Notes: a model not told the origin generated them from the sequence alone. 64,000 bases of DNA from Candidatus Falkowbacteria bacterium (GCA_018674305.1 JABHAL010000001.1:4635-68634), one strand, 5' to 3'; positions 1,883-64,000 are shown, counted from the first letter of the stretch. A program made the numbers and translations.

Positions 1883-1895
1883 ATAAACAAGTTTC

Positions 1896-1939
1896 GAATA
1901 TTACGCGAATATTACACTAATATTACACGAATATTGTAT
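1896..1939. repeat. four direct 11-bp repeats GAATATTAC(G/A)C, iteron-like
   Basis: gaatattacgc/gaatattacac/taatattacac/gaatattgtat with an exact 11-nt period, immediately upstream of the lipoprotein gene start. Confidence 0.6.
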
Positions 1940-1960
1940 TCACATTAATTAAACATTCTC

Positions 1961-2338
1961 TTAAGAATCTCTAGAAGAATAAGTTGTTTTAATCCATTTA
2001 TTTAACTGGTAATGGACTTGTTGTGCTCTCTCCACAAATAATTTATACTTTTCCTGAGTAATTTTTTCTCTCTTATACATTAGATCACACCAATGTTTTG
2101 ACTCCATTAATGATGCCCTTGCATTATAATAAAATTTAATTCGATCAAGATAGTGAAAACGACCATAACCTTCAACAATATTTGCAGCGTTAGAATCAAC
2201 TGAGCGAATAAATTGATCGCCAAGTATTTTTCTGTCTTGCCAACTTAAAAACTCATACAGCTGCCAACCCAAATCGCACAACTCTAGGGATATTTTATAA
2301 ACAAAAACATCTTCAATTGGAATATACTTACTTTCCAT
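1961..2338 (-). CDS. four-helix-bundle protein (23S rRNA intervening-sequence protein family, PF05635-like)
   Basis: SNAANIVEGYGRF...FYYNARASLMES matches the family signature AANIAEG.GR...A.GS..E. Confidence 0.75.
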   Translation of the reverse strand: MESKYIPIEDVFVYKISLELCDLGWQLYEFLSWQDRKILGDQFIRSVDSNAANIVEGYGRFHYLDRIKFYYNARASLMESKHWCDLMYKREKITQEKYKLFVERAQQVHYQLNKWIKTTYSSRDS

Positions 2339-2394
2339 TTTGTTATAATATTTGTTTAATATTTGCGCAATATCTGTTCAATATCTGTTCAAAT

Positions 2395-6637: not shown

Positions 6638-6696
6638 ATCCCGGACACTGATCCGGGATCTAGTAAATTTCAGGGGATTCCGGATTAAATCCGGAA
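6638..6696 (-). other. pair of GC-containing hairpins (atcccggacactgatccgggat / attccggattaaatccggaat) 3' of ftsL
   Basis: two perfect 8-9 bp inverted repeats sharing a tcc(c)gga core; no T-run follows. Confidence 0.4.
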
Positions 6697-6815
6697 TGAC
6701 GAAAAGGGGATGAATAAAAAATCCACCTAACCTAAAGGCGGATATGTTAAGTGTTAAGTGTTAAGTAATTATAAAATAACAACCCTCGAGCTGTTATTTT
6801 TATACTTTTATATTT

Positions 6816-8891: not shown

Positions 8892-9380
8892 CTACGTAAT
8901 ATTCGGCTCCTTACCGTAAACAGGTATTACTAATTGTTTTCTTGTTTTTTTGCTTTCTTGCCCGCCTTGACCGCCGTCAGGCGAGGCAGGCTTTCGTGCT
9001 TCTGCCCAAACTTTTTCCAACTTTTCCTTTTCAGGCAAGTCCAACCACGATTTTTTCAACTGAACTCCAACAATCGGAATATTCAAACTGTGAGCCAAAG
9101 TATTGGCCGTAACAATTCCAATTCGCAAAGCTGAAAACTGTCCCGGCCCCTGAACGACGATAATGCCCTTTAGTTGTTCTTTAATTTTTGCTCCTTGCCC
9201 CTTAACCCTTCCTTGCCCTTTGCTCCTTAACCCTTGCCCCTCAAACAATCTATCGATTGTTTTCAACAACAACTCGGACTGTTTATACGGGTTTTCAACA
9301 GTTTTTATTTTCTCAATTTTATCTTCGCCAATGGCCAAAGAAAATCGAGCATTGCTTTCAGTTGAGATTAGTAAGTACAT
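8892..9380 (-). CDS. tsaB: tRNA t6A biosynthesis protein TsaB-like (truncated YeaZ, low-complexity insert)
   Basis: VVQGPGQFSALRIGIVTANTLAHSLNIPIVGV matches the TsaB GPGSFTG.RIG core; only the N-terminal domain is present. Confidence 0.6.
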   Translation of the reverse strand: MYLLISTESNARFSLAIGEDKIEKIKTVENPYKQSELLLKTIDRLFEGQGLRSKGQGRVKGQGAKIKEQLKGIIVVQGPGQFSALRIGIVTANTLAHSLNIPIVGVQLKKSWLDLPEKEKLEKVWAEARKPASPDGGQGGQESKKTRKQLVIPVYGKEPNIT

Positions 9381-9466: not shown

Positions 9467-10906
9467 TTAATCATAATAATTAATAATTTTCCCCATTACC
9501 ACAACACCTTCAACATCACCTTCAAAGAAAAATCTTCCACATACTTTACCTCCAACATTATGAACGTTCCTACAGTTTTTTATTTTCCTTCCTTCAATTT
9601 CAGTTATAATTTCTCCATTAATAACTGGGTAATAATCACCAGGGAGATCCTCAAATCTGGCGCTACAATTCAGTTTACCTTCAATAACCTCCACAGATTC
9701 TGTTTGCTTAATCTTATGCCCGTCAATCTCGCGGATTACTCGCCCTTCAACTATTGGATATTCTAGTACATACCCAGCCATTTGCCCAGGTCGTTTATAT
9801 GAAACTTTTGCTCTACCGTTTATAGAGTTTTCCGTATATTCAATATAATCAACATCATGTGAAACTGGATTATCATCTGGCAAATCATCAAGTTGTACTT
9901 CTTCACCACGGTTGACCACGACAACACCTTTGGATACTATTGATAGTCTTGCACAAAGTTTATTATCGATATTTTTAACATAACGACAATCAATTATTTC
10001 GTTGCCCTTAAACTCAACTATGTCCTTTCCGTCTATGACCGGAGTGTGTTTCCTTTGTTCAGTAAAACCTTTCGTGGTAATATAACCATTTAACTCACCA
10101 TTAATAAATTCTAATTCCTTAATATAATTAAGAGGGTGGCCATCCACTTGGTCAACTTCTGTCATCTTACCATTTTCCACATAAACTGGAATTCTTTTTG
10201 CTCTCCATTCTTGCGTTTTCGGATCAATATATTTATCATTCATGGAAAAACCAAAACTTCCAGTTGTTTGATCAAAATGGATATCCTCTGGATGAGCATA
10301 AACAGGGTCAGCAACTTCAAATTTATTATCTCCACATGCACCGACCTGTTCTAAAATCCTACCAGAATCATCAATCACAGCAATAGTCTTCCCAGATTCT
10401 AAATTGAAATGAGCCAGAATCTTCCCATTCTGAAAGCTCATGTCATAAACACTTTTTACTGAATATTTATTGCCGTCAGCATCAACCAACTCTCTGATAA
10501 TTTCTCCTTTGATTATCGGTAGCCAGACATCGTCTATACAAATACGGCCATACAACTTACCATTCATTTCAGCATAGCTGTTCCATTTATCCAACTTAAC
10601 ACTTAAGGCCTCTAGGTCATCTACAAAAGATTCAATCAAACCTGGATCAACCAGCTCCTTGTTAGCAAATGGTATTTTCTTAGTTTCAATAAACTCTACG
10701 ATCCGCTCTTTCTTGGCGATATAATTCCTCATCACTTGCAGTGTTTCTTTATCACCTGCCTCAGCCTTTGCTTTGAGCTCAGCAAAACCCAAACCTCCCG
10801 AAATCCTTTCCAGTTCAGACATTAATCTATCAAAATGTTGCTGCTGAAATTCGGTGAAGTTAGCTTTAAGTGCGTTTTCTTGTAATTGTTTTTCTGGATT
10901 TATCAT
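9467..10906 (-). CDS. paralog-family protein A: conserved 75-aa N-module + repeat-containing C-domain
   Basis: N-terminus MINPEKQLQENALKANFTEFQQQHFDRLMSELERISGGLGFAELKAKAEAGDKETLQVMRNYIAKKERIVEFIETKK; the C-terminus has ~35-aa internal repeats (V.G..I.EI.G.KIK). Confidence 0.6.
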   Translation of the reverse strand: MINPEKQLQENALKANFTEFQQQHFDRLMSELERISGGLGFAELKAKAEAGDKETLQVMRNYIAKKERIVEFIETKKIPFANKELVDPGLIESFVDDLEALSVKLDKWNSYAEMNGKLYGRICIDDVWLPIIKGEIIRELVDADGNKYSVKSVYDMSFQNGKILAHFNLESGKTIAVIDDSGRILEQVGACGDNKFEVADPVYAHPEDIHFDQTTGSFGFSMNDKYIDPKTQEWRAKRIPVYVENGKMTEVDQVDGHPLNYIKELEFINGELNGYITTKGFTEQRKHTPVIDGKDIVEFKGNEIIDCRYVKNIDNKLCARLSIVSKGVVVVNRGEEVQLDDLPDDNPVSHDVDYIEYTENSINGRAKVSYKRPGQMAGYVLEYPIVEGRVIREIDGHKIKQTESVEVIEGKLNCSARFEDLPGDYYPVINGEIITEIEGRKIKNCRNVHNVGGKVCGRFFFEGDVEGVVVMGKIINYYD

Positions 10907-11210
10907 ATTTAATGTGTATTATGTGTCAGATGTTACTCGTTATGTGTTACGTGTTACGTGCTACGTGCCTAGCTATTCTTTCTCAACCAACGTAAAACTC
11001 TCTTTAAATCCTGCTATTCCATTTGATAAATCAGCATATTCTTCTACGTTTTCGTAAGCTACCCTTATCTCAGCTTCCTTTGTGTTTAATTCTTTTGATC
11101 GTTTGACCAAGTTTTAGTTTTCCTTTTTCTAGTAGGAATTTGTAAAAATCTAATTAAAATTCGCCCCAAAGGGACCACTTCGTGGTAGATTCGGATTATA
11201 TTGTTCAGAT

Positions 11211-19445: not shown

Positions 19446-19517
19446 ATTTAGTATATTGTTATATTGCTATATTGTTATATTGTTATATACAATTTAACAA
19501 TTTAACAGTTTAACAGT
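19446..19517. repeat. tandem repeats (TATATTGT x4, then AATTTAACAG x4) filling the rplJ-rplL spacer
   Basis: tatattgttatattgctatattgttatattgttatatacaatttaacaatttaacagtttaacagttt. Confidence 0.7.
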
Positions 19518-20039: not shown

Positions 20040-20300
20040 ATATTAAAGGAGGGATAAGGAGGCTATAGGAGATAACTATGAATTATTAGATTTTAGTTAT
20101 CCTCTTGCCCCTCTATATCTTCTTTATCTTATAATAATTAAAAAATCTGCGTTAAATTCCGCAGACATATCTAAAAAAGGATATATTCCTCGACAGGTAA
20201 TTAAGCCCCTGATAAAATAAGGACACCCGTTGTCTACGGAGATTAATTTAATTGTTATAGATATTATAAAGTAAATTTTAGATTACGTCAACCCCACTAA
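20040..20300 (-). promoter_or_regulatory. rplJ promoter (TTGACG, 17 nt, TATAAT at ~20265-20293) and ~215-nt leader, putative L10 autoregulatory leader
   Basis: consensus promoter on the gene strand; long structured leader typical of rplJL operons; leader ends in a CU-rich tract instead of an SD. Confidence 0.4.
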
Positions 20301-20371: not shown

Positions 20372-21691
20372 TTATTCCAATTGAATCATTACTTCTGGAG
20401 CAATTGGATTTTGCTTGAATTTTTCCACAAAAATCTTTTTTACAATCGATTCCCTTTCAAAAGTTAGGAGCGTCGGATCATGCAAGACTTTTGACTGTCT
20501 AAGTTCTTTTTCGACATCAAAGGATAAACCTGTTACATGTTGATCAATTGATGATTGCAATACATCAGTTCGTGCCCATTTATCCAAAGCTACATGAAAC
20601 TCAATATCATCATTGATATCAAGTACATATTGGATCCTACTTTCAAATATAAAATTCTGTTCATTAGGTAAAACAGCATTCAACCGAAAATGCATTTTGA
20701 ACTCTCCATTTAACCGTAGTCCGGGCTCAATGGAATAGTATAAAGGACTGACTGACGCCTCTGTCCACTGCATAAAAGTATCTGTTTCATCCTGACTTAA
20801 ACGGGCTATTGGTCTATTTAGCTGTCGATCAATAACCACAAAACTTTTTTCCTGACCATTACTATCTTTATTAACATGAGTCCAATCGAAGCACCTACCA
20901 GCAGAAAACAGAACCAAGCTCGTCAAGATGAAACTTATCACCGTTATAGACAAGTGACGCCATTGCCAATGCATTTTTGTTCTTAATCCATAACTAGTAT
21001 AGTGTAGAAATAAGAAACCAGTGATATACACAATCCAAATCATAGCCATCAGTGGGATTGGAAAAAACTGGTACGCATGAACAGAAAATAACACCAAAGC
21101 ACCAATAGCACACACTTGGCTAAGTAAAAAAGCACTTCCGAAAACTGCTATAAAAACTAAATCACCAACAAATTCTAATTTACCGCCCCAAGATCGAACA
21201 ATACCCATATATTCAACTTTAACATTACCATTGACCAAGGTTATTTTCTCCTCGGTCCTATTGTGAATTCGATTACGCAGTTGATTCCAACGGTCACTAA
21301 CATCTGCACGCCACAGTTCAAACTTACTCAATCTTTTTTTAATATATTGCAAGTCTTGAGCTGAGCCTTCAAGCATGAACTTGAGCACTGGCCAGTGAAT
21401 AGACTTAATTGGTCGAGTAGAATACCCATCAAATCGGAAACTTTCCTTATTGTACTCAGACTCACCCGTTAGTAAATGGTAAACAGAAACACCAAGACTC
21501 TGCAAAGATACCGACACATCGCCAACTCTGTGCATTACTTCAAACTTCACCCTACCGACACTGGAAATCATGAGCCGAGTTGGAGTGAATAATGGAAACT
21601 CTCCCTTTTTCTCACCTTTGACTACTTCCTTAAATAACACTCGAAGCAACAAAAGCACTCTGTCATCATATTGTGATGATTCTTTTTCCAT
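20372..21691 (-). CDS. membrane protein with N-terminal protein-kinase C-lobe-like (pseudokinase) region
   Basis: DVSVSLQSLGVSVYHLLTGESEY resembles kinase subdomain IX (DVWSLGV.LYELLTG..PF); HRD/DFG equivalents are degenerate; 4-5 TM helices mid-protein. Confidence 0.4.
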   Translation of the reverse strand: MEKESSQYDDRVLLLLRVLFKEVVKGEKKGEFPLFTPTRLMISSVGRVKFEVMHRVGDVSVSLQSLGVSVYHLLTGESEYNKESFRFDGYSTRPIKSIHWPVLKFMLEGSAQDLQYIKKRLSKFELWRADVSDRWNQLRNRIHNRTEEKITLVNGNVKVEYMGIVRSWGGKLEFVGDLVFIAVFGSAFLLSQVCAIGALVLFSVHAYQFFPIPLMAMIWIVYITGFLFLHYTSYGLRTKMHWQWRHLSITVISFILTSLVLFSAGRCFDWTHVNKDSNGQEKSFVVIDRQLNRPIARLSQDETDTFMQWTEASVSPLYYSIEPGLRLNGEFKMHFRLNAVLPNEQNFIFESRIQYVLDINDDIEFHVALDKWARTDVLQSSIDQHVTGLSFDVEKELRQSKVLHDPTLLTFERESIVKKIFVEKFKQNPIAPEVMIQLE

Positions 21692-31019: not shown

Positions 31020-31056
31020 AACAAAAAACCGCTCAAACAAGAGCGGTTCTTTTTAT
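31020..31056. terminator. bidirectional terminator (aaccgctc/gagcggtt stem)
   Basis: perfect 8-bp stem flanked by A6 and T5. Confidence 0.6.
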
Positions 31057-31091
31057 ATATTGTTACGTGATATGTGTTATATGCTACGTGA

Positions 31092-34859: not shown

Positions 34860-34861
34860 AG

Positions 34862-34948
34862 TTTATCATGAATCATGAATCCTGTATCATGTATCACCAC
34901 GAAAGATAGTGAGTGCTACATGTTACATGTTACATGCTATATGTTTAT
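34862..34948. repeat. degenerate tandem heptamer/octamer repeats (ATCATGA / YTACATG) filling the rpmJ-rpsM spacer
   Basis: atcatgaatcatgaatcctgtatcatgtatc...gctacatgttacatgttacatgctatatg. Confidence 0.65.
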
Positions 34949-49042: not shown

Positions 49043-49100
49043 TAATCTAATTATAGCACAAAAAAAGACGCTCTTGAATCAAGAACGTCTTGTGTTTAAC

Positions 49101-52897: not shown

Positions 52898-52963
52898 ATT
52901 AGAAAATTAACTATAATTAGCTATTTAAAATAATACAGCAAATTGCTATTTTTCGCAATGGTA

Positions 52964-52992
52964 TTGACAAATCCATCAATATTTGCTATAGT
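52964..52992 (+). promoter_or_regulatory. consensus sigma70 promoter P1 (TTGACA, 17 nt, TATAGT)
   Basis: ttgacaaatccatcaatatttgctatagt. Confidence 0.65.
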
Positions 52993-52999
52993 AAATGCA

Positions 53000-53126
53000 C
53001 AAAGACGGTGTGTCGCTGACACAAGCCTTAGGGCGTCGGCTTAACACATCTAGAGACTCTAAACCCATTCATGCAGTTAACATCTACGAAGGACCAGTGA
53101 TTCAATATCACTGGCCTTTTCTTTTG
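53000..53126 (+). ncRNA. candidate small RNA 1 (~125 nt, promoter P1 to terminator)
   Basis: bounded by P1 and the intrinsic terminator ccagtgattcaatatcactgg+ccttttctttt; contains GTGTGTC...AAGCCTTAGGGCG; no ORF. Confidence 0.45.
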
Positions 53127-53177
53127 TCTCGACGAGACTACTTTATTGTAATTTTAGTACATATCAACTAACATAGC

Positions 53178-53206
53178 TTGACTAATCTAAAAAAGTATGC
53201 TATAAT
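53178..53206 (+). promoter_or_regulatory. consensus sigma70 promoter P2 (TTGACT, 17 nt, TATAAT)
   Basis: ttgactaatctaaaaaagtatgctataat. Confidence 0.65.
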
Positions 53207-53212
53207 GCAATT

Positions 53213-53566
53213 GAACGTGATGAATAGCGTGTGTCTCCCCACTCTTCAAAAGCCTTAGGGCGAAGTTGTGGGTAAATAAAATTTTGTTATTATTAGTTAG
53301 AAAAAGAAAAGAAAAGAAAAAATCATTCATCACTTAGTTCACTTGTTCGTTCTTTTGCAGTCTTTTTTCATGGTTCTTGGTAGTTTTCTTTTTTGTCTCG
53401 TGGTAGTTCTCAGCTGGTAGACATAGTCTACCGAAAGAAAGCTACTAACAGATTAATTCTGTTAGTAGCAACATTTTCACTGCATATGCAGTGAAAAAAC
53501 TCGCCAACATGAGCCTTAGGGACTTGTTGGTTTAACCCCTTAATAAAATTAAGGGGTTTTTTCTTT
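53213..53566 (+). ncRNA. candidate small/structured RNA 2 (~350 nt, promoter P2 to terminator)
   Basis: terminator aaccccttaataaaattaaggggtt+tttttcttt; internal perfect hairpins (cactgcatatgcagtg; gctactaacag..ctgttagtagc); two copies of the AGCCTTAGGG motif; no ORF >20 codons. Confidence 0.4.
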
Positions 53567-53584
53567 ATTAGAATAAACTAAAAC

Positions 53585-53613
53585 TTGACATACTTAAGTA
53601 TCTGTGATATACT
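53585..53613 (+). promoter_or_regulatory. consensus sigma70 promoter P3 (TTGACA, 17 nt, TATACT)
   Basis: ttgacatacttaagtatctgtgatatact, 64 nt upstream of the 53677 ATG. Confidence 0.6.
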
Positions 53614-53676
53614 GTTAAATCAATAAACAATGATAACTTATCTTTTTAACTACAACATTTGAAGGAGATCAGAAAG

Positions 53677-54006
53677 ATGTCTAGCAGAAAGGAAACTCGG
53701 GTAGAAAAAGAGGCTCGGCTCGAAGCAACGGCTATTGCCAATGCGGCAGCTGGAAAGGTTGCCAACGCAGCCTCCACGGCCATCCTGGCCCAGGAACTGT
53801 TCGACGATGAGTTTGAGCGGGTTTACGAGGAAGCTTACCGCGACATTCTGCAAGATAAGCAGAATAAGGAGTTCTTCAGCGCTTGCGATGAGGATCCGCT
53901 TTTCAATGATGATCTTCAGAAAGAGCACGAGGAACTGTACTTCGCGAACCTCGCAGCTGAACAGGGTATTGCAAGGCCTCCGATCAATAAGGCCATCGAA
54001 GCATAA
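53677..54006 (+). CDS. small acidic protein (109 aa), ~52% GC
   Basis: ATG 7 nt after GAAGGAGA; Ala-rich then acidic (EELFDDEFERVYEEAYRD...); GC ~20 points above background; terminator follows. Confidence 0.5.
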   Translation: MSSRKETRVEKEARLEATAIANAAAGKVANAASTAILAQELFDDEFERVYEEAYRDILQDKQNKEFFSACDEDPLFNDDLQKEHEELYFANLAAEQGIARPPINKAIEA

Positions 54007-54020
54007 AAAAACCTACAACC

Positions 54021-54042
54021 CGGTAATATAGTTACCGGCGAC
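54021..54042 (+). terminator. hairpin terminator after the small acidic gene
   Basis: ccggtaatatagttaccgg perfect stem just after the stop codon; no T-run follows, so weak. Confidence 0.4.
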
Positions 54043-54071
54043 CGTATACTACATTGTGTGCGGTCTTTCTT

Positions 54072-54108
54072 TTAAAATAAAAAACAAAGAACTTGTCAAG
54101 CTCTTTGT
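54072..54108 (-). terminator. rho-independent terminator after mnmA
   Basis: acaaaga...tctttgt stem then tttttatttt on the minus strand. Confidence 0.55.
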
Positions 54109-54127
54109 TGTGATTTATGTAATTTTG

Positions 54128-55225: not shown

Positions 55226-55269
55226 ATTATAACAAAAAAGACGCTAATTGCGTCTTTCTTTATATCACA

Positions 55270-58496: not shown

Positions 58497-59702
58497 TCAC
58501 ATATTTGTTGAAATTTCATACATTGGGAGTACTATCGCTGTAATCATTAAACCAACTGCGACGCCCAAGACTACCATTATAAATGGCTCCATCAGAGACA
58601 TCATATTTGAAATGAGATTATTAACTTCACGAGTATAAAAATCGCTGACTTTTTCTAGGACATCTTCAATCTTTCCGGTAGCCTCTCCTGTATCCAACAT
58701 TTGAGGTAACATTTTAGGGACTAATTTATTGTTTTCAAAAATTTCGCCAAAACCTCCGCCACTCTCTATATTTTCTCGTGTCTTATCAATCAAATCAGAA
58801 TAAACAACATTACCAACCATAGCAGAACTAATTTCCAGACCACTGACAACATCAACCCCACCAAGCATTAAAGTTCGCAGTCCAAGAGAAAATCGAATAA
58901 CAGAAATATAATTAAACAACTTACCAAAGATTGGCAATCGCAACTTTATATTGTCAATATGTTTTCGACCAACAACACTTTTAGAATAAAAATATACAAG
59001 TATTATAATAACAATAATTATCAAAAACACCAACCACCAAAAATTAACCATAAAATCACTTGTCCCTTTCAAAATTCTTGTCGCCAAAGGAAGTTGGGCG
59101 CCAGTTTGGGACAACATATCCGTCAATTTAGGAATAACAAAGACCATCATTAAAACGCCAATGGCAAACAAACTACCAACCACAAAGGCTGGATAAATTA
59201 ATGCGCCCTTGATTTTACTACGTAAATCATAATCCTTTTCTAATTGATCGGCTAAATATAAAAGCACTTCTTGTAAACGACCTGACACTTCTCCAGACTT
59301 GATAATATTAACAAAAAAATTATCAAAAACTTTTGGATGATTAGCCAATGCTTCAGAAAACTTTACTCCGCCTTCCACCTCAGTTGCCACTTCAACAATT
59401 GATTTTTTTAGTTTTTTATTCTTGGTTTGATTAACAACATCTTTCAGCGATTCAACCACAGGCACGCCAGCAGAAATTAAAATTGACAATTGTCGTGAGA
59501 AAATTACTAAATCTTTTGCCTTAACACCACCCAACATTAATTCCAAATTTGCTAAACCAGTTTTTTTTTCTTCAACAAATAAAACCATGAAGCCTCTTTC
59601 TTCCAAAATGTCCACAGCCAAACTTTCAGACTCAGCTTCAACTAATCCTTCAAATATATCTTCTTCTTGTTTTTTTCGTGCTCGATAACTGAATATTGGC
59701 AT
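58497..59702 (-). CDS. pilC: type IV pilus platform protein PilC (GspF family)
   Basis: duplicated GspF domains, 3 TM helices, 401 aa. Confidence 0.85.
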   Translation of the reverse strand: MPIFSYRARKKQEEDIFEGLVEAESESLAVDILEERGFMVLFVEEKKTGLANLELMLGGVKAKDLVIFSRQLSILISAGVPVVESLKDVVNQTKNKKLKKSIVEVATEVEGGVKFSEALANHPKVFDNFFVNIIKSGEVSGRLQEVLLYLADQLEKDYDLRSKIKGALIYPAFVVGSLFAIGVLMMVFVIPKLTDMLSQTGAQLPLATRILKGTSDFMVNFWWLVFLIIIVIIILVYFYSKSVVGRKHIDNIKLRLPIFGKLFNYISVIRFSLGLRTLMLGGVDVVSGLEISSAMVGNVVYSDLIDKTRENIESGGGFGEIFENNKLVPKMLPQMLDTGEATGKIEDVLEKVSDFYTREVNNLISNMMSLMEPFIMVVLGVAVGLMITAIVLPMYEISTNM

Positions 59703-59819
59703 AAACTATCACATATCATAGATCACATACCACGTATCAATCACCAAGTCATGTGCTACGTGTTATGTGCTACATATTATGTGTTACGTGTTATGTGCTA
59801 CGTGTTATGTGCTACGTGT
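59703..59819. repeat. tandem degenerate repeats (unit ~TGYTACGTGTTATG, 14-16 nt) filling the pilB-pilC spacer
   Basis: tcatgtgctacgtgttatgtgctacatattatgtgttacgtgttatgtgctacgtgttatgtgctacgtgttt. Confidence 0.7.
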
Positions 59820-61580
59820 TTACTCTTGCTCTTCAACTTCTTTGCTAACCCTAAAGACCTCCTCCAAAGCTGTACTGCCTTGTAGCGCTTTTATAATTCC
59901 GTCTTGTAATAAACTGACTACCCCAATCTCAGCCAACTCCTTCAGGACTTCGGCTTTTGGAAAATTATTAGCAATTAGAGAGCGCATTTTTTCATTAATA
60001 GGTAAAACCTCTGAAAAAACAACTCTTCCACTGTAACCAGAATTCTTACACGCTGGACAACCCTTACCCTTATATCCAGACAATTCTCCTTCTAAATTAA
60101 TATCTTTTGGCAATAGACGACGAGGTAATTTAGCCAACTCTTTGCGTATTTTATTTGCCGTTTCTTCAGGTAAAGGTGTTTTTTCCTTGCATTTAGAACA
60201 GATTCGCCGACCCAGTCTCTGAGCAATTACTAAATTTAAAGTTGAGGCTAATAAAAATGGTTCTACTTTCATATCAACCAAACGAGGAACTGAACCAATA
60301 GAATCATTAGTATGTAAAGTCGAAAACAATAAATGACCTGTCAGAGCAGCGTGTACTGACATTTCCGCAGTTTCACTATCTCTAATTTCACCAACCATGA
60401 TAATATCGGGGTCTTGCCTCATCAAAGAACGTAAACCAGACGCAAAAGTAAATTTCACTTCAGGACGAACTTGCGCTTGATTAATTCCTGGAACATTATA
60501 CTCAATAGGATCTTCTAACGTTGTAATATTCACTCCTTCTTTGTTCAAAATACTTAAAAGTGAAAACAAAGTAGTTGATTTACCAGATCCAGTCGGCCCA
60601 GTAACTAAAACCATGCCAAAAGTTTGCTTTAGTGCTTTGTGAATTATTTCAATTATATTATCACTAAAGCCAAGCTGTTCTAGCGACAGGGCCTTGCTAG
60701 AAACATCCAATAACCTCATTGTCACTTTTTCTTTGCCTGACAAAGGCATAACTGAAACACGTAAATCAAATTCATGTTTACCAGATTTATACTTAAATCG
60801 CCCATCTTGAGGAACACGAGTTTCGTCAATTTTCAAATTAGACAACACTTTGATACGAGAAATAATTGAATCATGAACATGTGCAGGAACAGTTAAAACT
60901 GTAGTTAATATTCCATCAATGCGATAGCGAACACGGGAAGATTTTTCAAACGGCTCAATATGTATATCTGAAGCCCTACTTTCTACAGCATGCTTAACAA
61001 TCATTGATACAATCTGAGCAACTGGGGCTCTTTTAATGACTTCCTCAATATTATCAGTTGACAGATCATCTTCGTCTTTTTTTTCTTCGCGCTCTTTTTC
61101 AACCTGATCAACTGCGCTGGCCACATCTTCTCCAAACACATTATAATTTTGAAACTTCTCCTGCCAGGCATGAAGAGAGCAAACATAGTATTCCACAGTA
61201 TAACCTTTACTGGAGGCCCAAAAATCCAAGGCTTCTCGAGCATCATAATCTTCTGGTTTAGCTAAAGCTAATTTTAATTTTGTTCCATGTTTAGAAAAAC
61301 ATAAGACGAAATGTTGCTCTGCTAAATTACGAGGTAAAACATCATTCACTTCCGCTGTAAGTTTTTCAAGTATTAAATTAACATATGGGTGGTTATAAAA
61401 CTCTGCCTCTGCCTGAGCTAAAACTTCTGCATCCACAAACCCACCCTTAACTAAAATTTCGCGCAAATCTTTGTCATTTGCGCTTTTTAGAACATTCTCA
61501 ACTTCCTGTTCCTGAATTTCCCTAATTGCCTTTTTCCCAACCAGGAAGTGTAATAAATTTTTTTGGTTTTCCCTTAACAT
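59820..61580 (-). CDS. pilB: type IV pilus assembly ATPase PilB (GspE family)
   Basis: Walker A GPTGSGKSTT, Asp box, His box, C-terminal CxxC...CxxC zinc motif. Confidence 0.9.
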   Translation of the reverse strand: MLRENQKNLLHFLVGKKAIREIQEQEVENVLKSANDKDLREILVKGGFVDAEVLAQAEAEFYNHPYVNLILEKLTAEVNDVLPRNLAEQHFVLCFSKHGTKLKLALAKPEDYDAREALDFWASSKGYTVEYYVCSLHAWQEKFQNYNVFGEDVASAVDQVEKEREEKKDEDDLSTDNIEEVIKRAPVAQIVSMIVKHAVESRASDIHIEPFEKSSRVRYRIDGILTTVLTVPAHVHDSIISRIKVLSNLKIDETRVPQDGRFKYKSGKHEFDLRVSVMPLSGKEKVTMRLLDVSSKALSLEQLGFSDNIIEIIHKALKQTFGMVLVTGPTGSGKSTTLFSLLSILNKEGVNITTLEDPIEYNVPGINQAQVRPEVKFTFASGLRSLMRQDPDIIMVGEIRDSETAEMSVHAALTGHLLFSTLHTNDSIGSVPRLVDMKVEPFLLASTLNLVIAQRLGRRICSKCKEKTPLPEETANKIRKELAKLPRRLLPKDINLEGELSGYKGKGCPACKNSGYSGRVVFSEVLPINEKMRSLIANNFPKAEVLKELAEIGVVSLLQDGIIKALQGSTALEEVFRVSKEVEEQE

Positions 61581-63858: not shown

Positions 63859-63885
63859 AAATTATACTGTTAAATTGCTATATTG

Positions 63886-64000
63886 TTATATTGCTAATTT
63901 TTCGTTTGTATACTTAATTAAATGATTTATTTCTCGAGGCATTTTTTCTAATGCACTTTTAATATACTTATATTGCTCTTCTAAAATTAATTTCCTATAA
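63886..64000 (-). CDS. partial CDS (C-terminal ~38 codons) running off the window end
   Basis: open frame ...KLILEEQYKYIKSALEKMPREINHLIKYTNEKLAI* on the minus strand; too short to classify. Confidence 0.2.
   Translation of the reverse strand, partial: YRKLILEEQYKYIKSALEKMPREINHLIKYTNEKLAI

What the first reader, a model, noticed from the sequence alone, without database searches (positions are those of the whole stretch)
59703..59819. 117-nt tract of degenerate tandem repeats (TGYTACGTGTTATG) between pilB and pilC
The whole pilB-pilC spacer is built from 14-16-nt units (tgtgctacgtgttatg, repeated 4-5 times with point variants) preceded by CA-rich cacatatcatagatcacatacc. On the mRNA strand this reads as CAUAACACGUAGCA repeats. 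The same repeat flavour recurs in other intra-operon spacers (see the next two findings). These are not CRISPR repeats (units too short, no spacers). They may be a dispersed regulatory or RNA-binding-protein element, mRNA-stability or translational-enhancer CA-repeats, or slipped-strand-prone phase-variation tracts.
Basis: seen in the sequence. Interest (0 to 1): 0.55.

Follow-up and report, generated by a model that had tools for sequence, protein, structure and literature searches.

The report
Foldback tandem-repeat insert between pilB and pilC
The gap between two pilus genes of an uncultured Falkowbacteria bacterium is filled by five copies of a 14-base unit plus a degenerate inverted copy, one of many such repeat inserts between genes in this lineage, some of which carry a small "intervening-sequence protein" gene, so it looks like a tolerated selfish or regulatory RNA hairpin and not an on/off switch.

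Summary
The 117-nt pilB–pilC spacer (59703–59819) holds five tandem 14-nt units, each made of two heptamers (CACGTAG + CACATAA on the mRNA strand). They start right after the pilB stop codon. A 33-nt degenerate inverted copy follows and ends 4 nt before the pilC start codon.

The tract is far beyond chance and identical in independent assemblies. It matches no Rfam family and contains no promoter-like or terminator-like site.

It belongs to a class. Short tandem arrays are about 14-fold denser in this genome's spacers than in its coding sequence. The CACRTAR family recurs in at least six spacers, always on the sense strand.

The closest relatives have pilB and pilC only 3–4 nt apart. Other relatives carry unrelated repeat or hairpin spacers of 200–245 nt at the same junction.

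The array-plus-inverted-array architecture also brackets all seven Avd-like four-helix-bundle (PF05635, "23S rRNA IVS protein") genes I examined. One of those elements has an ORF-less twin in the rplJ–rplL spacer.

Best reading: a slippage-prone, IVS-like foldback insert that is co-transcribed, keeps the stop and start codons together and masks the pilC start. Function is inferred, not shown. Phase variation is not supported.

This is a new variant of known kinds (heptanucleotide repeat arrays of the STRR/LSSR kind, and rRNA intervening sequences).

The parts
59820..61580 (-). pilB (T2SSE ATPase, 586 aa). Its stop codon TAA (59820-59822) directly abuts the array.
   Evidence: Pfam PF00437 E 3e-122; ORF list
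59750..59819 (-). 5' arm on the mRNA: five tandem 14-nt units (ACACGTAGCACATA x2, ACACGTAACACATA, ATATGTAGCACATA, ACACGTAGCACATG). Each unit is two heptamers of the CACRTAR type. There are stop codons in all three sense frames and none on the antisense strand.
   Evidence: TRF period 14, 5.0 copies, 89%, score 119; spacing 14,14,14,14; frame test
59740..59749 (-). Loop or linker (ACTTGGTGAT on the mRNA) between the array and its inverted copy
   Evidence: Sequence; arms
59707..59739 (-). 3' arm on the mRNA: about 2.4 degenerate units in inverted orientation (TGATACGTGGTATGTGATCTATGATATGTGATA). It can pair with units 1-3 or 3-5 of the array.
   Evidence: Inverted repeats I1/I2, 33 nt, 76% complementary; TRF 59707-59739 period 14, 2.4 copies; MFE fold
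59703..59706 (-). Last 4 nt (GTTT) before the pilC ATG. There is no Shine-Dalgarno sequence.
58497..59702 (-). pilC (T2SSF platform protein, 401 aa)
   Evidence: Pfam PF00482 E 2e-53
34860..34948 (-). Sibling element in the rpmJ-rpsM spacer: (ACATGTA)x4, an apex GTAGCAC...GGTGAT, then (TCATGAT)x4.6. Its 3' arm is about 70% like that of the pilB-pilC element.
   Evidence: TRF; alignment; genes
10931..10967 (-). Same heptamer family (CACGTAR x5.3) without an inverted arm. It ends about 25 nt upstream of the ATG of ORF 9467-10906, and degenerate CA-rich units continue to that ATG.
31050..31091 (-). Same heptamer family directly after the rpsI stop codon, followed by a terminator-like hairpin
19446..19517 (-). 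rplJ-rplL spacer: two complementary 8-nt arrays (hairpin z = -3.5). It is the ORF-less twin of the element that carries the second IVP gene.
1883..2394 (-). PF05635 'IVS protein' gene (1961-2338) bracketed by complementary 11-nt arrays (2339-2394 and 1883-1960)
   Evidence: Pfam; arms 41 nt, 73%; p<0.005 vs shuffles
63859..64000 (-). Downstream 8-nt array (63859-63885) and the 3' part of a second PF05635 gene inserted between pilM and pilN. The gene continues beyond the window and is seen whole in L125.

Best explanation
SHOWN.
- The spacer is a non-coding foldback tandem-array insert.
- Immediately after the pilB stop codon come five 14-nt units, each made of two heptamers.
- A 10-nt linker follows, then about 2.4 degenerate units in inverted orientation, ending 4 nt before the pilC ATG.
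- It is one member of a genome-wide class that extends to other candidate-phyla (CPR) bacteria.
- Short tandem units of 7, 8, 11 or 14 nt occupy most of the longer intra-operon spacers of this Candidatus Falkowbacteria genome.
- A given unit family recurs at several spacers in one orientation.
- The same array-plus-inverted-array architecture brackets every Avd-like four-helix-bundle (PF05635, '23S rRNA intervening-sequence protein') gene I looked at.
- One such gene-carrying element has an ORF-less twin in the rplJ-rplL spacer.
- The nearest relatives have pilB and pilC only 3-4 nt apart. The insert is therefore lineage-specific and dispensable.

INFERRED.
- The insert is a selfish or near-neutral element of the intervening-sequence (IVS) type.
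- Its arrays grow and shrink by replication slippage. Heptamers are the favoured unit, as in other repeat-rich bacteria.
- Its inverted arm arose by template switching or arrived with the element.
- It is co-transcribed within the pil operon mRNA.
- There it folds into a long, imperfect stem-loop with several possible registers, which keeps the pilB stop and the pilC start physically adjacent. This would explain why it is tolerated at a junction that is normally translationally coupled.
- The fold buries the SD-less pilC initiation region.
- The expected effect is to damp pilC translation or uncouple it from pilB, and to offer a duplex that could serve as an RNase III site or a 3'-exonuclease barrier.
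- It is not expected to act as an on/off switch.
For: - Anatomy.
- Beyond chance, and concentrated in spacers: 16 arrays in 6.7 kb of intergenic DNA against 10 in 57.3 kb of coding DNA. Fourteen arrays observed against 0.74 expected in shuffles.
- Sense-strand family: CAYRTRRCA 20:0, plus two more spacers outside the window.
- No promoter-like or terminator-like site and no Rfam family in the spacer.
- Junction lengths in 55 loci: most bacteria have -14 to +20 nt. The closest relatives have 4 nt (L092, PilB 78% identical) and 3 nt (L082/L093). Other Falkowbacteria-like lineages have 200-245 nt of unrelated repeats or hairpins.
- L091 has 45-nt arms, 89% complementary, running from the stop codon to 2 nt before the ATG, with fold z = -8.5.
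- The window's minimum-energy fold closes the whole spacer: exterior loop 3 nt against a shuffle mean of 14.2, with 5% of shuffles as small.
- The pilC start region has P(unpaired) 0.27.
- PF05635 genes: 7 of 7 are flanked by complementary tandem arrays, 6 of 7 with p<0.005.
- The rplJ-rplL hairpin aligns to the two ends of the pilM-IVP-pilN element.
- The orthologous IVP element in a relative (80% protein identity) keeps the same 11-nt unit, with about 17 copies against 4.
- Precedent: the Coxiella 23S IVS is a selfish element with a terminal inverted-repeat stem cut by RNase III, an S23p ORF in the loop, and tandem heptamers whose number varies between strains (PMC4990558).
- Heptamers are the commonest long simple-sequence-repeat unit in repeat-rich bacteria (Mrazek 2007 as summarised in PMC4679880). 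Here 25 of 53 intergenic arrays have period 7 or 14.
Against: - The fold is no more stable than dinucleotide shuffles (z = -0.55 and -0.82).
- Mismatches in 17 such hairpins show no G.U excess over A.C on the sense strand (12 against 11). There is therefore no signature of selection on RNA pairing.
- Several members of the same heptamer family have no inverted arm (10931-10967, 31050-31091, L123 16476 and 18272), so a hairpin is not a general requirement.
- The spacers in relatives do not share one predicted behaviour: the pilC start is open in L084 and L088 (P(unpaired) 0.70-0.75) and strongly masked in L091.
- With a ribosome on the pilB stop codon, the window's pilC start opens only from 0.27 to 0.36, so coupling by unmasking is weak here.
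- No PF05635 gene with CACRTAR flanks was seen in the 84 kb available. The link between this heptamer element and the IVP-carrying elements rests on architecture only.
- No target-site duplication is visible.
- There are no expression data.
Confidence: 0.5

Rival explanations
1. A plain in-situ simple-sequence repeat of the LSSR/STRR type. A heptamer pair expanded by polymerase slippage in a slippage-prone lineage. The inverted part is fortuitous or a by-product. There is no function and no relationship to IVS-like elements.
For: - Heptamer-dominated arrays are typical of repeat-rich bacteria.
- Unit sequences differ between loci and genomes.
- The closest relatives lack the spacer.
- Fold energy is not above shuffles, and there is no G.U bias.
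- Array copy number differs between species at an orthologous site.
Against: - The inverted arm is a recognisable copy of the units: 33 nt, 76% complementary.
- Paired inverted arrays recur at many spacers and in many genomes.
- In L091 the unit variant (GCGAAT vs GCGGAT) changes in both arms together.
- The rplJ-rplL hairpin shares ordered unit variants with the ends of the IVP2 element, which is dispersal and not purely local growth.
- MutS is present, so loss of mismatch repair is not an obvious cause.
Confidence: 0.25
2. A dedicated cis-regulatory RNA array. The CA-rich heptamers on the mRNA would be binding or standby sites for a single-strand RNA-binding factor (ribosomal protein S1, a Csp-like protein) that controls translation of SD-less genes, as proposed for TAACTGA repeats in Beggiatoaceae.
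For: - The CACRTAR family shows a strict sense-strand bias.
- Only 13 of 63 genes in the window have an SD-like sequence.
- Sibling arrays lie in front of start codons: L123 14239-14306 and 16476-16500 end within about 17 nt of the ATG, and 10931-10967 ends about 25 nt upstream with CA-rich units continuing to the ATG.
- They also occur in ribosomal-protein operons.
- Similar (CACATAA)n arrays lie in 5' leaders of phage-like contigs.
- Analogy: PMC4679880.
Against: - In this spacer the CA-rich array abuts the upstream stop codon, and the pilC start is preceded by the GU-rich arm and predicted to be paired.
- One family member lies in a 3' UTR ahead of a terminator (31050-31091).
- Unit sequences are not conserved between relatives at this junction.
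- No binding protein has been identified.
Confidence: 0.12
3. A transposase-driven miniature mobile element (MITE, or REP/REPIN-like) inserted between pilB and pilC.
For: - Intergenic foldback elements with inverted termini.
- Independent occupancy of the same junction in several lineages.
- Related unit families in different genomes, for example TGCGAAT arms in L091 and in L123 12834-12942.
Against: - No near-identical copies exist; family members share only the unit motif.
- No target-site duplication.
- No transposase or RAYT gene was seen in the 84 kb examined.
- Arms made of internal tandem units are not typical of REP or MITE elements.
Confidence: 0.08
4. A phase-variable contingency tract. 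Slippage would change the number of 14-nt units and so switch or tune pilus expression within a population.
For: - Tandem short units are slippage-prone in principle.
- Pili are classic phase-variable structures.
- The heptamer number in the Coxiella IVS varies between strains.
Against: - The tract lies neither in an ORF nor between promoter hexamers.
- A 14-nt change cannot shift a reading frame here.
- Two assemblies carry the spacer with identical length. A third and fourth match the window 100% over 10.8 kb holding five other arrays. These populations are nearly clonal, so the test is weak.
Confidence: 0.04

Closest known systems
Heptanucleotide tandem repeats of bacteria: long simple sequence repeats (Mrazek 2007), cyanobacterial STRR heptamers (own knowledge), and TAACTGA repeats of Beggiatoaceae, Cyanobacteria and Bacteroidetes (MacGregor 2015, PMC4679880)
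   Same: Head-to-tail 7-nt units that are strongly intergenic. They lie on the sense strand of co-directional genes, often next to start codons of genes lacking an SD sequence, including ribosomal-protein operons. A few unit families recur per genome, the phylogenetic distribution is sporadic, and the function is unknown.
   Different: Here the unit is a pair of alternating heptamers (period 14). The array starts at the upstream stop codon and is followed by an inverted degenerate copy, giving a foldback that spans the whole spacer. Unit sequences differ (CACRTAR, not TAACTGA or CCCCAGT). The host is a CPR bacterium, and no such report turned up in the searchable literature.
23S rRNA intervening sequences (IVS) carrying an S23p / PF05635 ORF (Coxiella, Leptospira; PMC4990558)
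   Same: A stem formed by terminal inverted repeats with a loop that may or may not hold a four-helix-bundle protein gene. Tandem heptamers occur inside the element and their number varies. The element is regarded as selfish, and the stem is cut by RNase III.
   Different: The elements here lie between protein-coding genes of operons, not in 23S rRNA helices. Their arms are themselves tandem arrays with periodic mismatches. The pilB-pilC element has no ORF. RNase III processing is untested.
Intercistronic palindromic elements (REP/BIME/REPIN of enterobacteria and pseudomonads; Correia/NEMIS MITEs of Neisseria) - from own knowledge
   Same: Short non-coding hairpin-forming inserts inside operons. 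They are co-transcribed and can stabilise upstream mRNA or be cut by RNase III. They are lineage-specific and dispensable at any one site.
   Different: Those families consist of many near-identical copies with defined termini and, for REP and MITE elements, a cognate transposase. Here the copies share only a 7-nt motif, and the arms are tandem arrays.
Phase-variable simple-sequence tracts in 5' leaders (Moraxella uspA2 AGAT repeats, cited in PMC4679880)
   Same: A tandem short unit in a transcribed, untranslated region upstream of a surface-structure gene.
   Different: No length polymorphism was detected. The tract is intercistronic, not between a promoter and the first gene. It is associated with a genome-wide repeat class that includes housekeeping operons.

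Membership tests
Long simple sequence repeat / STRR-type heptanucleotide array | Head-to-tail copies of a 5-11-nt unit, longer than expected by chance | tested here: met
   Period 14 (2 x 7), 5.0 copies, score 119. Shuffled spacers reach at most 63.
Long simple sequence repeat / STRR-type heptanucleotide array | Intergenic enrichment and recurrence of the same unit at several loci of the genome | tested here: met
   2.4 arrays per kb of intergenic DNA against 0.17 per kb of coding DNA. The CACRTAR family is in 4 spacers in the window and 2 outside it.
Long simple sequence repeat / STRR-type heptanucleotide array | Copy-number differences between strains or species | tested here: inconclusive
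   The available assemblies are 99.9-100% identical and show no difference. Between species, an orthologous 11-nt array has about 17 copies against 4. No orthologous CACRTAR array was available.
TAACTGA-type pre-start heptamer repeats (MacGregor 2015) | Direct heptamer repeats within a few nt upstream of a start codon, replacing the ribosome-binding site | tested here: not met
   In this spacer the direct array abuts the pilB stop codon, and the inverted arm abuts the pilC ATG. Some siblings do meet it: L123 14239-14306 and 16476-16500 end within about 17 nt of their ATG, and 10931-10967 ends about 25 nt upstream.
TAACTGA-type pre-start heptamer repeats (MacGregor 2015) | Unit sequence TAACTGA | tested here: not met
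   The units are CACGTAG and CACATAA.
rRNA-type intervening sequence (IVS) | Terminal inverted repeats forming a stem that closes the element | tested here: met
   Arms 33 nt, 76% complementary. The MFE closes the spacer, leaving a 3-nt exterior loop. The stem is imperfect and its energy is not above shuffles.
rRNA-type intervening sequence (IVS) | Inserted in a 23S rRNA helix | tested here: not met
   It lies between pilB and pilC.
rRNA-type intervening sequence (IVS) | Excision by RNase III | not testable with these tools
   Needs RNA-end mapping or an in-vitro cleavage assay.
rRNA-type intervening sequence (IVS) | S23p / PF05635 ORF in the loop (present in a subset of IVSs) | tested here: not met
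   The 10-nt linker holds no ORF. Sibling elements at 1883-2394 and at pilM-pilN do carry one.
MITE or REP/REPIN mobile element | Many near-identical full-length copies with defined termini and a target-site duplication | tested here: not met
   Within 84 kb only the 7-nt motif is shared. The best sibling (rpmJ-rpsM) is about 70% alike in one arm. No duplication is visible at the ends. The whole genome was not available.
CRISPR array | Repeats of 23-50 nt separated by unique spacers of similar length | tested here: not met
   The units are contiguous 14-mers with no spacers.
Phase-variable contingency locus | Repeat tract inside an ORF or between promoter elements, so that unit number sets frame or promoter spacing | tested here: not met
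   The tract lies between a stop and a start codon, with no promoter-like hexamers in the spacer.
Phase-variable contingency locus | Length heterogeneity within or between populations | tested here: inconclusive
   The length is identical in L081 and L094. Reads were not available.

The most novel reading that the evidence does not exclude
PF05635 (Avd-like, '23S rRNA IVS protein') genes may be the cargo of a family of foldback tandem-array elements that colonise the intercistronic spacers of CPR operons. These would be 'intervening sequences' of mRNAs rather than of rRNA. ORF-less arrays, such as the rplJ-rplL hairpin and possibly the pilB-pilC tract, would be their non-autonomous derivatives. 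The four-helix-bundle protein would recognise the unit arrays in trans: the unit sequence and period track the protein clade, with 11-nt AATATT-type units for IVP1 relatives and 8-nt units for IVP2. The stems would be processed out of polycistronic transcripts.
Probability: 0.25. Interest if true: 0.75.

Novelty: new variant of a known kind. Interest (0 to 1): 0.55.

Why it matters
CPR bacteria have tiny, tightly packed genomes, so spacers that are repeatedly filled with 100-250 nt of tandem and inverted repeats at junctions that are normally translationally coupled need an explanation.

If the link holds, it does three things:
- It extends heptanucleotide-repeat biology, unexplained since the cyanobacterial STRRs and the Beggiatoaceae TAACTGA repeats, to a new phylum.
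- It gives the abundant but functionless PF05635 / S23p / Avd-like proteins a concrete genomic partner, namely flanking complementary tandem arrays. Their role and the long-suspected mobility of rRNA intervening sequences then become directly testable.
- It warns annotators that gene callers extend ORFs through such arrays (for example the 439-aa PilC call in L084), and that short-read assemblies may break at them.

Tried and rejected
- **Genome search with PilB.** It returned only distant homologues (46% identity or less), because conserved ATPase motifs saturated the hit list. It was useful only as a background for junction lengths and repeat density.
- **Metagenome scan with a degenerate PilB C-terminus pattern.** It did not retrieve the window's own organism, so no strain series was obtained. 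It did yield four related junctions.
- **Strain variation.** All retrievable assemblies of this species are 99.9-100% identical, so the copy-number test is uninformative.
- **RNA-fold z-scores.** The target is not more stable than dinucleotide shuffles, because the CA/UG composition pairs anyway. I therefore used arm alignment and exterior-loop length instead.
- **G.U versus A.C mismatch asymmetry as a test for RNA-level selection.** No asymmetry, 12 against 11.
- **Rfam.** No family matched.
- **Translational coupling by unmasking.** It is strong in L091, weak in the window and absent in L084 and L088. It is rejected as a general mechanism.
- **'Stop codons in all three frames' as the reason for the strand bias.** The target has stops in 3 sense frames and 0 antisense frames. 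In this genome the count is 10/14 against 3/14, but across all loci only 28/53 against 19/53. This is suggestive only.
- **Viral-contig scan for (CACRTAR)3.** 28 loci matched, one with the identical 14-mer. This shows the motif is not unique to this organism but gives no functional lead.
- **Rejected outright.** CRISPR, a protein-coding reading of the spacer (stops in every sense frame) and assembly artefact.

Full report
**Observation.**
- The window is a 36% G+C stretch in which nearly every gene lies on the minus strand.
- Exact protein look-ups place it in Candidatus Falkowbacteria, a member of the Patescibacteria / candidate phyla radiation (CPR).
- ORF 59820-61580(-) is a PilB-type T2SSE ATPase and ORF 58497-59702(-) is a PilC-type T2SSF protein.
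- The 117 nt between them (59703-59819) contain a 14-nt tandem repeat: 59751-59820, 5.0 copies, 89% matches, score 119. This is the strongest array in the window, and its copies are spaced exactly 14 nt apart.
- On the mRNA strand each unit is two related heptamers, CACGTAG + CACATAA.
- The array begins at the first base after the pilB TAA stop codon.

**The inverted arm.**
- Its 33-nt arm (59707-59739) is 76% complementary to the array in two alternative registers. It ends 4 nt before the pilC ATG.
- The spacer is therefore a foldback element, not only a tandem tract.

**Is it more than chance?**
- Dinucleotide-preserving shuffles of all 48 spacers of the window give 0.74 arrays on average (maximum 4 of 100; best score 63). 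The real spacers give 14 arrays, with a best score of 117.
- Arrays are about 14-fold denser in intergenic than in coding DNA: 16 in 6.7 kb against 10 in 57.3 kb.
- The tract is identical in an assembly from another sample that differs by 4 substitutions in 3.9 kb (L094).
- The first 10.8 kb of the window, with five other arrays, is 100% identical in two further assemblies made with a different assembler (L123, L124).
- The tract is real.

**Surroundings.**
- The spacer contains no promoter-like or terminator-like site and no Rfam family, even at a permissive threshold.
- The sense strand of the array has stop codons in all three frames and the antisense strand has none, so it is not coding.
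- pilC has no Shine-Dalgarno sequence, but that is normal here: only 13 of 63 genes have one.
- The motif CAYRTRRCA occurs 20 times on the mRNA strand and never on the other strand. It clusters in four spacers:
  - this one;
  - 10946-10967, in the spacer upstream of ORF 9467-10906, where the array ends about 25 nt before the ATG;
  - 31069-31090, directly after rpsI and followed by a terminator;
  - 34922-34943, the rpmJ-rpsM spacer (genes confirmed).
- Ten kb beyond the window the same family appears twice more (L123 16476-16500 and 18272-18300).
- The rpmJ-rpsM element has the same layout as the target: a heptamer array, an apex GTAGCAC...GGTGAT, then an inverted array ending at the ATG. 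Its 3' arm is about 70% like the target's. Its unit differs (CATGTAR), with a matching change in the other arm.
- Other spacers are filled with other units: 8-nt (19446-19517, 63859-63896), 11-nt (1883-1960, 2339-2394), CTTAACA (6745-6766) and AATACTT x8.6 (L123 14239-14306).
- By inspection, most terminator-free spacers longer than 40 nt consist of such arrays. Spacers that hold a terminator plus a promoter mostly do not.

**Relatives.**
- PilC homologues show the nearest sequenced relatives at about 70% identity. I recovered their pilB-pilC junctions through exact-protein look-ups and a degenerate PilB C-terminus pattern.
- Across 55 loci, pilB and pilC are typically -14 to +20 nt apart.
- In the closest relatives of the window the gap is 4 nt (L092, PilB 78% identical) or 3 nt (L082, L083, L093). 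L082 has no tandem arrays at all in 17 kb.
- Other lineages of the same clade have long spacers made of unrelated repeats:
  - L084/L089, 245 nt: AAATTAC-type heptamers, their inverted copy, then CACCACT x4 up to the ATG.
  - L088/L090, 245 nt: 10- and 30-nt units up to the ATG.
  - L091, 200 nt: 45-nt arms, 89% complementary, built of ATGCGGAT units, running from the stop codon to 2 nt before the ATG, with fold z = -8.5.
- L091 holds a second element with the same architecture but GCGAAT in place of GCGGAT in both arms.
- More distant CPR loci (L003, L020, L051) show the same array-plus-inverted-array pattern. The median of 80 unrelated bacterial pilB loci is zero arrays.
- Of 53 intergenic arrays collected, 25 have period 7 or 14.
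- The long spacer is therefore lineage-specific and dispensable, and it is gained or turned over repeatedly at the same junction.

**An unexpected link.**
- Both PF05635 genes near the window (the '23S rRNA intervening-sequence protein' family: four-helix-bundle proteins related to the Avd protein of diversity-generating retroelements) sit inside such elements.
  - Gene 1961-2338 is bracketed by complementary 11-nt arrays.
  - The second gene is inserted between pilM and pilN, a junction that is uninterrupted in L082 and L084. It is bracketed by complementary 8-nt arrays.
- The two proteins are only 34% identical.
- The ORF-less rplJ-rplL hairpin aligns to the two ends of the second element, with the same order of unit variants. 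It looks like that element without its gene.
- I then fetched five more PF05635 homologues from other CPR genomes. All seven genes are flanked by complementary tandem arrays that fill the gaps to co-directional housekeeping genes. Six of the seven have p<0.005 against shuffles.
- The same unit family also occurs at ORF-less sites in the same loci.
- The orthologue of gene 1961-2338 in a relative (80% identity) keeps the same AATATT-containing 11-nt unit, with about 17 copies against 4.
- This matches the published anatomy of the Coxiella burnetii 23S rRNA intervening sequence (PMC4990558). That element is considered selfish, has a terminal inverted-repeat stem cut by RNase III and an S23p ORF in the loop, and carries tandem heptamers whose number differs between strains.
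- I found no paper in the searchable library describing such elements in operons or in CPR bacteria.

**How it most likely works.**
- *Shown:* the anatomy, the class membership, the dispensability, the strand bias, and the absence of transcription signals.
- *Inferred:* the tract is transcribed within the pil operon mRNA.
- The minimum-energy fold pairs the GU-rich 3' arm with the CA-rich units and closes the whole spacer. The exterior loop is 3 nt against 14.2 in shuffles, with 5% of shuffles as small.
- The pilB stop and pilC start therefore remain neighbours, as in relatives with a 3-4-nt gap. The pilC initiation region is mostly paired, with P(unpaired) 0.27.
- I therefore favour a tolerated IVS-like or slippage-grown insert whose RNA fold damps pilC translation or uncouples it from pilB, and which may serve as a duplex processing or stability site.

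**The caveats are substantial.**
- The fold is no more stable than shuffles (z = -0.55 and -0.82).
- Hairpin mismatches show no G.U excess (12 against 11).
- Several family members lack an inverted arm.
- Relatives' spacers behave differently in silico: the start is open in L084 and L088, while in L091 it is unmasked by a terminating ribosome (0.14 to 0.58).
- The connection between the heptamer family and PF05635 elements rests on architecture only.

**Rivals.**
- A purely local, functionless slippage product (0.25).
- A protein-bound translational array like that proposed for TAACTGA repeats (PMC4679880) (0.12).
- A transposase-driven MITE or REP-like element (0.08).
- A phase-variation tract (0.04). 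The position is wrong for this and no length polymorphism was seen, although the available populations are almost clonal.
- MutS is present, so the abundance of repeats is not explained by an obvious loss of mismatch repair.

**Verdict.**
- The tract is a new variant of known kinds, namely heptanucleotide STRR/LSSR-type repeats and rRNA intervening sequences.
- Interest is moderate for the tract itself. It is higher for the wider pattern it exposes: Avd-like IVS-protein genes nested in complementary tandem arrays between the genes of CPR operons.

Noticed in passing
window 1883-2394; window 63859-64000 (continues in L125 9554-10000): Two PF05635 ('23S rRNA IVS protein', Avd-like four-helix bundle) genes are each bracketed by complementary tandem arrays (11-nt and 8-nt units). 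The second is inserted between pilM and pilN, which are adjacent in relatives. Five further homologues in other CPR genomes (L126, L128, L130, L132, L133) show the same arrangement, making 7 of 7.
   Followed up: partly
window 19446-19517: The rplJ-rplL spacer consists of two complementary 8-nt arrays (hairpin z = -3.5). It aligns to the two ends of the pilM-IVP-pilN element, as an ORF-less twin of it.
   Followed up: yes
L123 12834-12942 (about 2 kb beyond the window start) and L091 689-804 / 2026-2229: Hairpins that close a spacer from stop codon to start codon and are built of NGCGAAT / ATGCGGAT units occur in two different genomes (PilC 56% identical). Within L091 the unit variant changes in both arms together.
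   Followed up: partly
window 52898-54127 (motif at 53024, 53251 and 53512 on the - strand): A 1.2-kb gene-poor region holds three copies of CCCTAAGGCT (0.04 expected by chance), about 230-260 nt apart. By eye each seems to sit in a hairpin loop with poorly conserved flanks. They may be tandem small RNAs. No Rfam family matched.
   Followed up: partly
window 6676-6698; also L123 about 20530-20560: The perfect palindrome CATTCCGGATTTAATCCGGAAT, with nearby CCCGGA..TCCGGG hairpins, recurs in two long spacers. It looks like a separate dispersed palindromic element.
   Followed up: no
window 20131-20257 (-): Ribosomal protein L10 leader (Rfam RF00557, 55 bits) upstream of rplJ. It is the only Rfam match in the 64 kb.
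   Followed up: no
window-wide, e.g. 55226-55269 and 49043-49100: Only 13 of 63 genes have an SD-like sequence. Several genes have a TATAAT box ending 0-7 nt before the ATG, which suggests leaderless or near-leaderless mRNAs. No tRNA gene is present in 64 kb.
   Followed up: no
window 9188-9241 (inside ORF 8892-9380, TsaD-like): A degenerate heptamer array (TTGCCCC x8 on the + strand) lies inside a coding region. A 7-nt period in frame implies a 7-residue peptide repeat.
   Followed up: no
L114 381-431 (IMG/VR contig 3300036760_001025) and 27 other viral contigs: (CACRTAR)n arrays occur in 28 IMG/VR contigs, against roughly 0.1 expected by my own rough estimate. L114 carries the identical 14-mer CACATAACACGTAG about 4.5 times. 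Several arrays lie in leaders just before an SD sequence and ATG.
   Followed up: partly
L086 7078-7232: Six near-perfect (97%) tandem copies of a 26-nt G+C-rich unit (GTCGCTACGCTCCTCGCAATGACGTG) in a Falkowbacteria MAG, upstream of a 983-aa AAA protein. There are no spacers, so it is not CRISPR.
   Followed up: no
L084 10001-11320: The public gene call for PilC in this relative is 439 aa because it reads through the stop-free CACCACT repeat. The conserved start is 38 codons downstream. Repeat spacers inflate ORF calls.
   Followed up: yes
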